Positions 17,012-50,915 of a stretch of 64,000 nucleotides of DNA are shown piece by piece. The notes under the pieces are model-generated. The model ran no database searches. It saw nothing but the letters and a program-made list of their open reading frames with translations, and was not told where the DNA came from. This stretch comes from the human T2T-CHM13v2.0 reference genome, Homo sapiens: the NCBI RefSeq assembly GCF_009914755.1, contig NC_060931.1. One strand, 5' to 3'. The position numbers and the translations under genes are program-made. Numbering within the stretch: position 1 is the first letter of the stretch; every line of letters starts with the position of its first letter.

Positions 17012-17437
17012 ATGATGACTGCTGAATCACGGGAAGCCACGGGTCTGTCCCCACAGGCTGCACAGGAGAAGGATGGTATCGTAATAGTGAAGGTGGAAGA
17101 GGAAGATGAGGAAGACCACATGTGGGGGCAGGATTCCACCCTACAGGACACGCCTCCTCCAGACCCAGAGATATTCCGCCAACGCTTCAGGCGCTTCTGT
17201 TACCAGAACACTTTTGGGCCCCGAGAGGCTCTCAGTCGGCTGAAGGAACTTTGTCATCAGTGGCTGCGGCCAGAAATAAACACCAAGGAACAGATCCTGG
17301 AGCTTCTGGTGCTAGAGCAGTTTCTTTCCATCCTGCCCAAGGAGCTCCAGGTCTGGCTGCAGGAATACCGCCCCGATAGTGGAGAGGAGGCCGTGACCCT
17401 TCTAGAAGACTTGGAGCTTGATTTATCAGGACAACAG
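17012..17437 (+). CDS. ZKSCAN1: ZKSCAN1 coding part of exon 2 (start codon, SCAN domain)
   Basis: [10 protein letters not shown]...[46 protein letters not shown] (SCAN); donor CAG|GTAAAA; 426 nt. Confidence 0.98.
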
Positions 17438-42999: not shown

Positions 43000-43530
43000 T
43001 CTGAAGTCCACGAGGGTGACCGAGGTGGCTGCCTCAGCCCATGCCCTCCCTGCCCCAGGGCGTCGGGGTTGGGTGAGAGAACCGCCGCAGCCTTCATCTG
43101 GTCTGACCGTCTTCGGTAAAAACAGAAAGAGTCCCTGGCTTTTCATTTTCGGGGTGGACTCAACTCCTCCCTGATGTCCCAAGGGCCAGAGACACAGAGA
43201 GGACCTCCCGAATTTCTAGAGGGGCCGCTACGGCCCCGCACTACTTTTCCGCGGGGGCGGGGCTATGACGCACTTCCGGGTGCGCGGTCCCGAGGTACGC
43301 GGTGCGGTCTCCCGGTACCCGGAGCGGCTCTGATTCATGGTGAGCCTGCTGGTCGCGGGTTAGCGAGGCGGACAGGAGAGGGAGCCGTGGCTGAATGGTC
43401 TGGGGAGGGAGGAGTGGGTTTAGCAGCTGTGGCTTCCGAGGACCCCACCTAGACCGGTCCTAGCAGGGCTGTGGGGAGGAGCTCCTCGTCCCCGCCCAGG
43501 ACCAGCTGGTGGGGGCGCTGGCTGCCTGGA
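43000..43530 (+). promoter_or_regulatory. ZSCAN21: CpG-island promoter of ZSCAN21
   Basis: CpG-rich. GC box GGGGCGGGG at ~43254; CRE-half/ETS composite TGACGCACTTCCGG at 43266-43279. Confidence 0.9.
43285..43339 (+). other. ZSCAN21: ZSCAN21 exon 1 (non-coding; transcription start approximate)
   Basis: Donor CATG|GTGAGC at 43339/43340. Confidence 0.8.
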
Positions 43531-44761: not shown

Positions 44762-44968
<207 letters not shown>

Positions 44969-45959
44969 TAGTAGAGACGGGGTTTCACCGTGTTAGCCAG
45001 AATGGTCTCGATCTCCTGACCTCGTGATCTGCCCGCCTCGGGCCTCCCAAAGTGCTGGAATTACAGGTGTGAGCCACGGCGCCGGGCCCCCTAGGGATTT
45101 TCAGGTACGGACTGAGTGTGAAGCATTTTAGCACAAGTGGGTAAGTGCTGTTCTACTTTTAGAATCTATGGTAATTTGATTTTTTTATGCCTCATCTTGT
45201 TACAGAATGGACTTGGGGCGCTTTCATAAGGGCATATAAGCTGTGGGAGATTGGCATAAAGGAGGAGGGAAAATGGACACAGAACAAGGGCCTTCTGTTT
45301 ATGATAGACCATGAACTTTTGCTTGATGGACTTCTTGAGATAAACAGTCTAGATAGCTTTTAAAAAGTCACTGTGATTGTAGACAATGTGAGTTAGTAAT
45401 GAAGCATTTGATTTCTAGCCGCATGCTTCTTTATTTTTTTAAGAGACAGGGTTTTCCTTTGTCACCCAGGCTGGAGCACAGTGGTACAGCCACAACTCTG
45501 CAGCCCGGAACTCCTGAGCTCAAGTTATGCCTCAGCCTGGGCAACAAAGCAAGACTTCGTTTCTACAAAAATAAGTAAATCAATAAATAAATTTTTTTTA
45601 ATTAGCTAGATGTGGTGATGCACACCTGTAGTCCTGGCTACTTTGGAGGCTGAGGTGAGAGGATCGCTTGAGGCCAGGAGTTCAACGCTGCAGTGAGCTG
45701 TCATGGCACCACTACACGCCAGCCTGGGCAACAAAGCGAGACCCTGCCTCTGTAATTGAAAAACAATAAAATAAAGACCCAGTGAAGTGGTTCACGCCTG
45801 TAACCCCAGAACTTTGAGAGACCAAGGCAAGAAGATGGCTTGAGACTAGGAGTTCAAGACTTCCGTGAGCTGTGATTGTGCCACTGCACTCCAGTCTAGG
45901 CAACAGGCTAAGACACTGTCTCTAAAAAATAAAAAAATTAAATTAAAAAAAAAAAGTGA

Positions 45960-46658: not shown

Positions 46659-47012
46659 TCACTTAGCTAATGAGCTTACCCAGCCAACTGCCCAGCAGCA
46701 ACATCCAAGGAAACTTTTTTTTCTGTAATTTGCAGAGGCAATCATGTGATCCAGTGGCATCTGTGAATTTGGATTCACCAAGTTCTCAGAGTGTATCGCA
46801 CATGAATGTTATGTTACTACATGACGCTCCCTGTGTGATGCCAGCAGGTGCTGCATGACTCCCTGGTGAATTGCCTTGTTTCCCAGGCCAGATCACAGAA
46901 GCTGAGCAGCCCAAACAATGGTTTCTTTCCTGGTCTTAGGGTGCCCTCCTCTGGATAGAGTATTAAATTTTGTAACAGTTACGTAAAGTTAATCTGCCAC
47001 TGAGGAGGGCTC

Positions 47013-47013
<1 letters not shown>

Positions 47014-47043
<30 letters not shown>

Positions 47044-47053
47044 CATACATACA
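47014..47053 (+). repeat. (TACA)10 tetranucleotide microsatellite
   Basis: Read directly; it adjoins the poly-T of an antisense Alu. Confidence 0.95.
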
Positions 47054-47254
47054 TAATTTTTTTTTTTTTTTTTTTTTTGCAACAGAGTCTTACTCTGTTA
47101 CCCAGGCTGGAGTGTAGTGACAGGATCTTGGCTCACTACAACCTCCACCTCCCAGGTTCAAGTGATTCCCTGCCTCAGCCTCCCAAGTAGCTGGGATTAC
47201 AGGTGCCTGCCACCACTCCCAGCTAATTTTTGTATTTTTAGTGGAGACTGTAAC

Positions 47255-47415
47255 TTGTAATTTTATGGCAACTATATTTTTTTAGGTTTAACATGTGGCC
47301 CTAAAGAACCAGAAACCGAAAGGAACCAGTATTCCTGCCCCACAGAGTCCCATCTTTAGTGAGGCTATTTCTGGAGTTTATATGATGACCAAGATACTAG
47401 GTATGGCCCCAGTTC
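47255..47415 (+). other. Duplicated copy of the ZSCAN21 intron-1/exon-2 junction inserted inside an antisense Alu
   Basis: 47286-47415 versus 50421-50550 gives 119/130 identical with no indels; the upstream acceptor was copied too. The host Alu is broken at GTGGAGAC | TTCACCATGTTGG. Confidence 0.93.
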
Positions 47416-47652
47416 ACCATGTTGGCCAGGCTGGTCTCAACTCCTGGCCTCAAGTGATCCGCCTGCCTTGGCCTCCAGAAGTGCTGGGATTACGGCCGTT
47501 AGCCACCACGCCCGGCCAGTCGTTTTAAATATTCTAAAGAATGCTCTCCAGCACAGCTACCTCATTATTTCTTGTTTATTTTAGTCTTTGGTGCTCAGGC
47601 CTTTGTTTTAGTAGGTGAGATGACGTTGCATCTCCCCTGACTCAATTTTTAA

Positions 47653-48060
<408 letters not shown>

Positions 48061-49962: not shown

Positions 49963-50289
<327 letters not shown>

Positions 50290-50516
50290 TGAGCAGTTGT
50301 TTTTGTATGGTAGTTTTATGGTGGACATAATTTCCACAATTTCTTGTGTTAAAGGTATGGCTGTAAAGACCCAAAAACACTTTTCAGTTTGATTATTTTT
50401 TGGTAACTATATTTTCTTAGGTTTAACTTGTGGCCCTAAAGAACTGGAAACCCAAAGGAACGAATATTCCTGCCCCACAGAGTCCCATCTTTGGTGAGGC
50501 TGTTTCTGGAGTTTAC

Positions 50517-50915
50517 ATGATGACCAAGGTACTAGGCATGGCCCCAGTTCTGGGCCCTAGGCCTCCACAGGAGCAGGTGGGGCCTCTGATGGTAAAAGTC
50601 GAGGAGAAAGAAGAGAAAGGCAAGTACCTTCCTAGCCTGGAGATGTTCCGCCAGCGCTTCAGGCAGTTTGGGTACCATGATACCCCTGGACCCCGAGAGG
50701 CCCTGAGCCAACTCCGGGTGCTCTGCTGTGAGTGGCTGAGGCCCGAGATCCACACCAAGGAGCAGATCCTGGAGCTACTGGTGCTGGAGCAGTTCCTGAC
50801 CATCCTGCCCCAGGAGCTCCAGGCCTGGGTGCAGGAGCATTGCCCGGAGAGCGCTGAAGAGGCTGTCACTCTCCTCGAAGATCTGGAGCGGGAACTGGAT
50901 GAGCCAGGACACCAG
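50517..50915 (+). CDS. ZSCAN21: ZSCAN21 coding part of exon 2 (exon is 50421-50915; SCAN domain)
   Basis: Acceptor TTTTCTTAG| at 50421; [10 protein letters not shown]...[28 protein letters not shown]..; donor CAG|GTAGGC; 399 nt. Confidence 0.97.

What the first reader, a model, noticed from the sequence alone, without database searches (positions are those of the whole stretch)
47255..47415. ZSCAN21 exon-2 start pasted into an intronic Alu: candidate self-derived uORF cassette exon
An antisense Alu is cut at GTGGAGAC/TTCACCATG and patched with ~160 bp copied from 3.1 kb downstream (intron end plus 130 nt of exon 2, 119/130 identical, TTC microhomology at the right join). Intron sequence is included, so the template was genomic DNA or pre-mRNA, consistent with templated break repair. 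The copy keeps the acceptor (TTTTTTTAG| at 47286), and a C>T change creates a donor (CTAG|GTATGG at 47400/47401; the source has GCATGG). The predicted 115-nt exon adds AUG-UGG-CCC-UAA and a 31-aa out-of-frame uORF ([14 protein letters not shown]...HLW*) that stops 20 nt before the real start. It could be a primate-specific splicing-controlled translational damper or a decoy acceptor, and it can also cause read mis-mapping.
Basis: partly seen in the sequence, partly recalled or inferred. Interest (0 to 1): 0.8.

Follow-up and report, generated by a model that had tools for sequence, protein, structure and literature searches.

The report
Exon-start copy patched into intronic Alu
A 156-base copy of the start of ZSCAN21 exon 2 was pasted long ago into an Alu repeat in the intron upstream, almost certainly as a DNA-break repair scar; it looks like a small exon carrying a decoy start codon, but nothing available here shows that it is spliced into the mRNA.

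Summary
Window 47260-47415 matches 50395-50550 at 142 of 156 bases without gaps. The exon part matches at 119/130 and the intron part at 23/26. These are the only two copies in the whole T2T genome.

The copy interrupts one otherwise continuous antisense Alu. The Alu has lost 5-8 bases there. The right join shares TTC. The left join holds 11 bases of uncertain origin. There is no target-site duplication and no poly(A).

The splice and uORF anatomy is as described. The donor is weak: 6.9 bits, below 15 of 16 annotated donors in the window, and about as common as 1 per 505 nt of the intron. RefSeq lists no such exon. A catalogue of 117 frontal-cortex samples lists only the other Alu exon of this intron.

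Verdict: an old, fixed templated insertion and a plausible but unproven pseudo-exon. The translational-damper idea is untested and unlikely. Interest is low to moderate.

The parts
47057..47248 (-). Host Alu, left piece on the + strand: T-run 47057-47078, right arm and linker, ending ...TTTTTAGTGGAGAC.
   Evidence: Aligns column for column with 5 of 5 neighbouring antisense Alus up to GAGAC. Sequence read.
47249..47259 (+). Left-junction filler of 11 nt with uncertain origin.
   Evidence: No ungapped homology to the source. It contains an 8-mer identical to source 50424-50431. A match of 8 nt or more arose in 108 of 5000 random intronic 11-mers and in 150 of 5000 shuffles. Alternatively it continues the source homology as TTG, a gap, then T, with source base 50392 missing (reading).
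47260..47415 (+). Copy of the last 26 nt of ZSCAN21 intron 1 plus the first 130 nt of exon 2. The last 3 nt (TTC, 47413-47415) are shared with the Alu as microhomology.
   Evidence: 142/156 identical to 50395-50550 with no gaps. Only 2 copies in the genome.
47416..47517 (-). Host Alu, right piece (left arm to the Alu 5' end), resuming at ACCATGTTGGCCAGG.
   Evidence: The Alu bases R-GGGT(TTC) present in 5 of 5 neighbours are missing, a microdeletion of 5-8 nt.
50395..50550 (+). Source segment: the end of intron 1, the exon-2 acceptor (exon starts at 50421), the 5'UTR and the first 34 nt of the CDS (AUG at 50517).
   Evidence: and the RefSeq table supplied with the finding.
47286..47400 (+). 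Hypothetical 115-nt cassette exon, with AG at 47284-47285 and GT at 47401-47402.
   Evidence: The acceptor context equals that of real exon 2: 10 of 16 pyrimidines at -20..-5 and a longest Y-run of 7 in both. The donor TAG|GTATGG scores 6.9 bits on a recalled PWM, against 5.3-10.9 for 16 annotated donors. No annotation or expression evidence was found.
47240..47241 (+). Second, Alu-derived acceptor-like AG, 44 nt upstream of the copied acceptor. It would give a 159-nt exon, 47242-47400.
   Evidence: It has the same Alu position and sequence type as the RefSeq-annotated acceptor of the Alu exon at 44972.
47293..47304 (+). Potential uORF1, AUG UGG CCC UAA. The AUG exists only in the copy (A at 47293, T at 50428 in the source).
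47382..47400 (+). Copy of the ZSCAN21 start codons (AUG AUG). If the interval were spliced to exon 2, this would open a 31-codon uORF ending at 50497, 19 nt before the real AUG.
   Evidence: in-silico join by coordinates.
50389..50393 (+). TTGAT, the only full yUnAy branch-point motif 21-34 nt upstream of exon 2 (A at 50392). It coincides with the 5' limit of the copied segment.
   Evidence: Motif scan. Consensus and distance range from the abstract of PMC2367711. The branch point itself has not been mapped.

Best explanation
This is a fixed, tens-of-millions-of-years-old templated insertion.

Proposed origin. A double-strand break inside an antisense AluS-age element in ZSCAN21 intron 1 was closed by end joining. 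The repair first copied a 156-nt tract from the intron-1/exon-2 boundary 3.1 kb downstream in the same gene. My preferred mechanics are inferred, not shown:
1. The 3' end of the left Alu stump (...GAGAC) primed DNA synthesis on the nearby duplex. This may have followed one abortive 8-nt copy of the exon-2 start.
2. Synthesis ran rightwards from about 50393-50395 to 50550.
3. The new strand was captured by the right stump through the 3-nt TTC microhomology.
4. The Alu lost 5-8 nt in the process.

This would be polymerase-theta/MMBIR-type templated insertion, equivalent in outcome to a 'class 2' templated sequence insertion. I put a DNA template in cis at about 55% and a cDNA of nascent ZSCAN21 pre-mRNA at about 35%.

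Current state. The copy has since drifted from the source by 14 differences in 156 bases. It carries an intact copy of the exon-2 acceptor and, 115 nt on, a weak GT donor. It is therefore a pseudo-exon that would add uORFs if used. Most likely it is skipped, or included only at noise level, and has no selected function.
For: Shown.
- 142/156 ungapped identity, and unique in the genome apart from the source.
- The two Alu flanks are consecutive parts of one Alu with only 5-8 nt missing. There is TTC overlap at the right join and 11 unassigned nt at the left. There is no duplicated target and no A-tract on either strand.
- These are the features listed for class 2 templated sequence insertions. 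Experimental inserts there measure 73-414 bp with a median of 191 (PMC5110952, text read).
- The filler contains an 8-mer from the exon-2 start, with a chance of about 2-3%. This fits repeated template use as described for MMBIR-type events (passages of PMC8421209).
- In a window self-comparison, the only other low-copy pair is the ZKSCAN1/ZSCAN21 SCAN-exon paralogy at 76%.

Age.
- Copy-to-source K2P distance is 0.097 over two lineages.
- The host Alu differs from the window's majority Alu at 14/230 = 6.1% of non-CpG sites, rank 29 of 65.
- The insertion is therefore younger than the Alu but old.

Lack of use.
- No exon at this place in the RefSeq table supplied with the finding.
- The donor scores 6.9 bits, below 15 of 16 annotated donors. 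14 of 408 GTs in intron 1 score at least as high.
- In the Alu-exon catalogue from 117 GTEx frontal-cortex samples, 4 of 4 ZSCAN21 rows are the 44972/44975 exon. No coordinate beginning 1000536-1000540 occurs.
Against: - No orthologous primate sequence and no RNA-seq junction data could be examined, so both the dating and the 'not used' part rest on indirect evidence.
- The cortex catalogue only lists exons that overlap an annotated Alu (methods passage). It tests the 159-nt version starting at 47242 but probably not the 115-nt version.
- The copied acceptor is as good as that of constitutive exon 2, and a full yUnAy motif lies 21 nt upstream of it.
- The same intron already exonises an Alu through the equivalent Alu acceptor, with maximum PSI of 0.24-0.60 in cortex. 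Low-level inclusion is therefore quite possible.
- An isoform with a 31-codon uORF might be removed by nonsense-mediated decay and so be under-annotated.
- Templates 3 kb away are further than the typical local MMBIR or polymerase-theta templates ('within 100 bp' in the yeast model). The 5' limit of the copy falls on the predicted branch point, which a DNA template does not explain.
Confidence: 0.8

Rival explanations
1. The 115-nt interval is a real, regulated, primate-specific cassette exon. Its copied start codons open a 31-codon uORF ending 19 nt before the true AUG, so its inclusion dampens ZSCAN21 translation or triggers NMD.
For: The anatomy is complete. The acceptor equals that of exon 2, branch-point-like motifs are present, and there is a GT donor of 6.9 bits. 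The uORF starts in the same context as the real AUG and ends too close to it for efficient re-initiation (the re-initiation rule is general knowledge). The same intron does exonise another Alu.
Against: No exon at this place in the RefSeq table. None was found in the sQTL listing for ZSCAN21 or in the cortex catalogue. The donor is weaker than 15 of 16 annotated donors, and a donor of this quality is expected by chance about once per 505 nt. The substitution pattern (11/130 exon, 3/26 intron) gives no sign of constraint. The canonical mRNA already has a 2-codon uORF across the e1/e2 junction.
Confidence: 0.05
2. Low-level, unselected use. The copied acceptor, or the Alu acceptor 44 nt upstream, is occasionally engaged. 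This would give rare 115- or 159-nt inclusion or act as a decoy site that slightly slows removal of intron 1, without adaptive value.
For: Acceptor quality equals that of exon 2. The paired Alu acceptor type is used at 44972. The decoy-exon concept is described for large retained introns (abstracts of PMC6097662 and PMC7373989 in the listing).
Against: Not annotated and not in the cortex catalogue, whose assembly threshold was 1% of the main isoform. No direct data either way.
Confidence: 0.25
3. RNA-templated patch. The right Alu stump's 3' end (...GAA) annealed to UUC in nascent ZSCAN21 pre-mRNA. A reverse-transcribing polymerase (L1 ORF2p or polymerase theta) copied exon 2 backwards across the 3' splice site. 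The cDNA end was then joined untidily to the left stump.
For: The review of templated sequence insertions reports enrichment for transcribed templates and a more than three-fold drop with reverse-transcriptase inhibitors (PMC5110952). Polymerase theta can reverse transcribe RNA (abstract of PMC8195485 in the listing). The junction polarity fits: microhomology at the proposed priming end and filler at the finishing end. The copy stops within 3 nt of the only full branch-point motif.
Against: RNA-derived patches in that work came from distant loci. A template only 3.1 kb away in cis is more simply explained by proximity of DNA. Intron-containing sequence fits DNA equally well. Nothing in the sequence discriminates between the two.
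Confidence: 0.3
4. The insert was acquired during Alu retrotransposition, by template switching of the L1 reverse transcriptase from Alu RNA to ZSCAN21 pre-mRNA and back, or by a separate L1-mediated insertion.
For: Chimeric retrocopies made by template switching are known (general knowledge, recalled).
Against: The insert is in gene-sense orientation on the + strand, while the Alu is sense on the - strand. One continuous cDNA would have had to copy an antisense transcript of exon 2. There is no poly(A), no target-site duplication and no TTTT/A-type site at the insert, and Alu bases are lost rather than duplicated. These are the class 1 criteria in PMC5110952.
Confidence: 0.02
5. Homology-driven repair. 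The broken Alu invaded the like-oriented Alu at 49977-50290 just upstream of exon 2, and synthesis ran on into exon 2.
For: A same-orientation Alu ends about 105 nt upstream of the copied tract. Alu-Alu interactions in mutagenic break repair are documented (title and abstract of PMC4356517 in the listing).
Against: The product lacks the about 230 nt (50165-50394) that such synthesis must have copied first. A strand carrying the rest of the Alu would have re-annealed to the right stump and given clean repair.
Confidence: 0.03

Closest known systems
Class 2 templated sequence insertions (TSI/TSIP; Onozawa and Aplan, PMC5110952)
   Same: A patch copied from an intact donor elsewhere. No target-site duplication and no poly(A). 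Microdeletion, microhomology and extra nucleotides at the junctions. The size (156 nt plus 11 nt) lies within the experimental range of 73-414 bp.
   Different: The donor lies 3.1 kb away in the same intron-exon unit, not at a distant locus. The event is old and presumably fixed, not a polymorphism. The recipient is an Alu.
Microhomology-mediated templated insertions (MMBIR 'MMB-TI', PMC8421209; polymerase-theta end joining, PMC7165422, the latter seen only in the search listing)
   Same: A nearby template, microhomology at a junction, and a possible second short templated tract (the 8-mer), as in multi-template events.
   Different: The copied tract is longer and its template more distant than the usual tens of bases copied from within about 100 bp. 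Microhomology at the left junction is not evident.
Alu exonisation, e.g. the RefSeq ZSCAN21 exon 44972/44975-45104/45140 in the same intron
   Same: An antisense Alu in intron 1 with the same linker acceptor, TTTTTAG|T, and a donor about 130-170 nt downstream.
   Different: Here the body, the better acceptor and the donor come from the pasted exon-2 copy rather than from the Alu, and no use has been shown.
Decoy exons and poison or uORF-bearing 5'UTR cassette exons
   Same: An intronic unit with paired splice sites that would lower protein output if engaged (abstracts in the listing; uORF arithmetic).
   Different: Those classes are defined by measured inclusion or intron retention and often by conservation. 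Neither is available here.
Tandem exon duplication
   Same: An intragenic copy of exon sequence with its acceptor, lying upstream of the parent exon.
   Different: Only the first 130 of 495 nt of exon 2 is copied, without its donor. It is embedded in a repeat and carries end-joining junctions rather than unequal-crossover junctions.

Membership tests
Class 2 templated sequence insertion | The insert is a copy of a sequence that remains intact at its donor site. | tested here: met
   142/156 identity to 50395-50550. The donor is the functional exon 2. There are 2 copies genome-wide.
Class 2 templated sequence insertion | No target-site duplication, no poly(A) tract or signal, no TTTT/A insertion site. 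| tested here: met
   Alu bases are lost, not duplicated. The junctions read GAGAC|TGTAAC and CAGTTC|ACCATG.
Class 2 templated sequence insertion | End-joining marks: microdeletion, microhomology, extra nucleotides. | tested here: met
   5-8 nt missing relative to 5 of 5 neighbouring Alus. TTC overlap. 11 unassigned nt.
Class 2 templated sequence insertion | The template lies in a distant genomic region (screen criteria based on inter-chromosomal junction pairs). | tested here: not met
   The template is 3135 nt downstream on the same strand.
Class 2 templated sequence insertion | Polymorphic in human populations. | not testable with these tools
   Only one human assembly is held. 9% divergence argues for an old, fixed event.
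MMBIR / polymerase-theta templated insertion | Microhomology at each template switch. | tested here: inconclusive
   3 nt at the right join. At the left join only 0-2 nt can be argued.
MMBIR / polymerase-theta templated insertion | The template is close to the break, usually within about 100 bp to a few kb. | tested here: inconclusive
   3.1 kb in cis: near on a genome scale, but beyond the 100-bp figure quoted for the yeast model.
Cassette exon (alternative 5'UTR exon with uORF) | AG acceptor with pyrimidine tract, a branch-point motif and a GT donor at exon-like spacing. | tested here: met
   The donor is weak at 6.9 bits, using PWM frequencies recalled from memory.
Cassette exon (alternative 5'UTR exon with uORF) | Observed inclusion in mRNA (junction reads, cDNA, annotation). 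| tested here: not met
   Absent from the RefSeq table supplied. Absent from the ZSCAN21 rows of the 117-sample cortex catalogue (4 of 4 rows are another exon). The ZSCAN21 sQTL junction in PMC12481885 runs from exon 1 to about 44975. Raw RNA-seq could not be queried.
Alu exonisation | Exon sequence and at least one splice site derive from an antisense Alu. | tested here: inconclusive
   Met only for the hypothetical 159-nt version that uses the AG at 47240-47241. The 115-nt version lies wholly in the insert.
Tandem exon duplication | A whole exon with both splice sites is duplicated. | tested here: not met
   Only the first 130 nt of the 495-nt exon 2 was copied, and the native donor at 50915 was not.

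The most novel reading that the evidence does not exclude
The patch is a cDNA fossil of a splicing intermediate. The right DNA end primed on UUC in exon 2 of a ZSCAN21 lariat-exon-2 intermediate, or of a U2-engaged pre-mRNA. Synthesis ran back across the 3' splice site and faltered at the branch point.

Two observations fit this. The copied tract ends within 3 nt of the only full yUnAy motif in the usual branch-point range (A50392, 29 nt before exon 2; abstract of PMC2367711). In the gapped reading of the left junction, the single base missing from the copy is that adenosine.

Reverse transcriptases are reported to pause at branch nucleotides and to make deletions when bypassing them from the 3' arm (abstract of PMC5399748).

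If true, this would be sequence-level evidence for RNA-templated break repair in the primate germline using an unspliced, branched template. One search combining lariat, branch-point and templated-insertion terms listed no such case among its 12 top hits of 512.
Probability: 0.06. Interest if true: 0.7.

Novelty: new member of a known kind. Interest (0 to 1): 0.3.

Why it matters
As it stands, this is a clean, datable example of a break inside an Alu being patched with a copy of nearby gene sequence. It shows how such a patch can plant a ready-made acceptor and a copy of the gene's own start codon in the upstream intron. That is one route by which new 5'UTR exons and uORFs could arise.

It matters in practice for anyone calling ZSCAN21 junctions. 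Exon-1 reads with 7 nt or less of overhang cannot tell 47286 from 50421.

It would matter biologically only if inclusion were shown. ZSCAN21 is discussed in the papers I saw as a regulator of SNCA (passages of PMC8215754), so a primate-specific translational brake on it would be of some interest.

Tried and rejected
- A first literature search failed on a term-syntax error. Re-sent, its 15 listed hits did not contain ZSCAN21.
- The ZSCAN21 + splicing + exon search returned 26 papers with 20 listed. I opened two of them. One gives an sQTL junction from exon 1 to about 44975. The other concerns coding variants.
- Supplements of the hnRNP C/Alu paper (6 files), the aberrant-splicing preprint (1 file) and the Alu-proteome paper (5 files) contain no ZSCAN21 entry. 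Files may have been cut when stored.
- Rejected on the sequence: L1-mediated insertion or template switching during Alu retrotransposition (wrong orientation, no poly(A), no target-site duplication), and Alu-Alu homology-driven synthesis from the Alu at 49977-50290 (about 230 nt of expected intervening copy is absent).
- MAFFT aligned the Alu's TTTTTAGT with the source's TTTTCAGT. I treat this as coincidence between two acceptor-like motifs, because the Alu continues for 6 more bases (GGAGAC) before the junction.
- No primate genomes, RNA-seq junction databases, MaxEnt/SpliceAI scores or branch-point maps were available. Donor scores therefore use position frequencies recalled from memory, and dating uses rates recalled from memory.

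Full report
**What is there**

I read 46900-47800 and 50300-50700. Bases 47260-47415 match 50395-50550 at 142 of 156 positions with no gaps.
- The repeat finder reports the pair as two-copy family D9, and blastn gives E = 9e-60.
- The 14 differences are 10 transitions and 4 transversions, for a K2P distance of 0.097. Three fall in the 26 intronic bases and 11 in the 130 exonic bases.
- A DNA search of the window's own 3.1-Gb assembly returned only the copy and its source, 2 of 2 candidates scored.
- In a self-comparison of the 64-kb window, the only other low-copy pair is the ZKSCAN1/ZSCAN21 SCAN-exon paralogy, 76% over 250 nt.
- The duplication is real, specific and far beyond chance.

**The recipient**

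I aligned the region with five neighbouring antisense Alus.
- One full-length antisense Alu spans 47057-47517 and is split by the insert.
- All five neighbours read GAGAC-R-GGGTTTCACCATG.
- The host reads GAGAC, then the insert ending ...CAGTTC, then ACCATG.
- The Alu has therefore lost 5-8 bases, depending on whether TTC is credited to the Alu or to the source. That TTC is a 3-nt microhomology at the right join.
- No target-site duplication or A/T tract bounds the insert.

Between GAGAC and the start of clean homology lie 11 bases (47249-47259) that do not align ungapped to the source. Two post-hoc readings compete for them, and neither is secure.
- They contain an 8-mer identical to the first bases of exon 2 (50424-50431). 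A match that long arose in 108 of 5000 random intronic 11-mers and 150 of 5000 shuffles.
- Alternatively they continue the source homology as TTG, a gap, then T, with a single source base missing.

**How it arose**

The junction features are microdeletion, microhomology, extra nucleotides, no duplicated target and no poly(A). These are the ones the Onozawa and Aplan review gives for 'class 2' templated sequence insertions. Such insertions are break-repair patches of 73-414 bp (median 191) in their experimental system (PMC5110952, full text parts 1-2 read).

The difference is that the template here lies only 3135 nt away in the same gene. That favours a proximity-dependent process.
- I prefer DNA-templated, microhomology-primed synthesis from the left stump, captured at TTC by the right stump. 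A possible abortive first copy would account for the 8-mer. Multi-template events of this sort are described among germline MMBIR-type insertions (passages of PMC8421209).
- A cDNA of nascent ZSCAN21 pre-mRNA is a serious rival. The review reports transcribed templates and sensitivity to reverse-transcriptase inhibitors. Polymerase theta can reverse transcribe RNA (abstract of PMC8195485 in the listing).
- The sequence cannot tell DNA from pre-mRNA. I put them at roughly 55% and 35%.
- I reject acquisition during Alu retrotransposition. The insert is gene-sense while the Alu is antisense, so one cDNA could not hold both.
- I reject Alu-Alu homology-driven synthesis from the Alu at 49977-50290, because about 230 nt that it must have copied first is absent.

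**Age**

- The host Alu differs from the majority base of 65 aligned window Alus at 14 of 230 non-CpG sites (6.1%, rank 29 of 65).
- The copy and source differ by 0.097 over two lineages, or about 0.05 per lineage if both drift.
- The insertion is therefore younger than the Alu but old, on the order of tens of millions of years using primate rates recalled from memory. It is surely fixed and necessarily primate-specific.
- If the source had been fully constrained, the copy would appear older than its host. This suggests the 5'UTR of exon 2 has also drifted.
- The direction of any single change is unknown without an outgroup. This includes the GC/GT at the donor, where GGC and GGT are synonymous in the source.

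**Exon-like anatomy**

- The AG is at 47284-47285, the exon would start at 47286, the GT is at 47401-47402, and the interval is 115 nt.
- The copied acceptor equals that of exon 2: 10 of 16 pyrimidines at -20..-5 and a longest pyrimidine run of 7 in both.
- A full yUnAy motif lies 21 nt upstream of the copied acceptor.
- On a position matrix whose frequencies I recalled from memory, the donor TAG|GTATGG scores 6.9 bits. Sixteen annotated donors in the window score 5.3-10.9, and 15 of them are higher.
- 14 of 408 GTs in intron 1 score at least as high, about one per 505 nt. A usable-looking GT within exon distance of a copied acceptor is therefore not surprising.

Joining the pieces by coordinates in silico gives the uORFs.
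- uORF1 is AUG UGG CCC UAA at 47293-47304.
- A 31-codon uORF from the copied start codons ends 19 nt before the true AUG.

- Exon 1 ends in AUG, so the canonical mRNA already carries AUG GUU UAA across the exon 1/2 junction.
- The Alu's own linker acceptor (AG at 47240-47241) lies 44 nt upstream of the copied one. It is the same site type as the RefSeq-annotated acceptor of the Alu exon at 44972. A 159-nt version is therefore equally conceivable.

**Is it used?**

- The RefSeq table supplied with the finding lists no exon at this place among 7 transcripts.
- An sQTL table gives a ZSCAN21 junction at hg38 chr7:100049841-100051478, which runs from exon 1 to about 44975 (PMC12481885, passage and supplement rows).
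- The Alu-exon catalogue from 117 GTEx frontal-cortex samples has 4 ZSCAN21 rows. All are the 44972/44975-45104/45140 exon, with maximum PSI 0.24-0.60. No coordinate beginning 1000536-1000540 occurs in the file (PMC8460874 supplement 2).
- That catalogue keeps only exons overlapping an annotated antisense Alu, and its assembly threshold was 1% of the main isoform (methods passages). It speaks against the 159-nt version in cortex but probably does not test the 115-nt version.
- Three other supplements held no ZSCAN21 entry.
- I could not query raw junction data.

My estimates:

| Outcome | Probability |
|---|---|
| Some junction reads exist somewhere | about 0.6 |
| PSI of 1% or more in a normal tissue | about 0.2 |
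| A selected regulatory role | about 0.05 |

**Mis-mapping**

The longest exact run shared by copy and source is 28 nt, and ten diagnostic bases lie within the 115 nt. Ordinary reads are safe. Only the first 7 nt after the acceptor are identical, so exon-1 junction reads with 7 nt or less of overhang are ambiguous.

**A bolder reading that is not excluded**

- The copied tract stops within 3 nt of TTGAT (A at 50392). This is the only full yUnAy motif 21-34 nt upstream of exon 2, the range holding 83% of mapped human branch points (abstract of PMC2367711).
- In the gapped reading of the left junction, the one base missing from the copy is that adenosine.
- Reverse transcriptases pause at branch nucleotides and make deletions when bypassing them from the 3' arm (abstract of PMC5399748).
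- A cDNA of a lariat-exon-2 intermediate would explain this. But the match left of the gap is only 3 nt, the branch point has not been mapped, and the idea is post hoc. I give it about 6%.

**Verdict**

The functional exon and uORF interpretation is unsupported but testable. This is a new member of a known kind: a templated insertion creating a pseudo-exon. Interest 0.3.

Noticed in passing
window 43337-43339 with 50421-50426: ZSCAN21 exon 1 ends in ATG. In the canonical mRNA the exon 1/exon 2 junction therefore forms a 2-codon uORF, AUG GUU UAA, 90 nt upstream of the main AUG.
   Followed up: partly
window 44972-45140 (Alu at about 44785-45095): The RefSeq alternative exons 44972/44975-45104/45140 are an exonised antisense Alu. 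They use the linker acceptor TTTTTTAG|TAG, and their donors lie just beyond the Alu 5' end (8.3 and 8.8 bits). The cortex catalogue labels the element AluY, finds these exons in up to 72 of 117 samples (maximum PSI 0.60), and an sQTL table lists the exon-1 junction to this exon.
   Followed up: partly
window 47016-47078: A (CATA)n microsatellite of about 10 units directly abuts the 22-nt T-run of the host Alu. No target-site duplication of the Alu could be recognised, perhaps for that reason.
   Followed up: no
window 50526-50534: Real exon 2 carries a weak internal donor-like AAG|GTACTA (3.8 bits) 10 nt after the start codon. It is destroyed in the copy (GT to AT at 47394).
   Followed up: no
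window 17168-17417 vs 50640-50889: ZKSCAN1 exon 2 and ZSCAN21 exon 2 (SCAN box) are 76% identical over 250 nt. This is the only other low-copy repeat pair in the window.
   Followed up: no
window 50380-50388: An acceptor-like CTTTTCAG|T lies 33 nt upstream of the real exon-2 acceptor, just outside the copied tract. It resembles the Alu linker acceptor TTTTTAG|T at 47234-47242 (7 of 8 bases), and MAFFT aligned the two.
   Followed up: no
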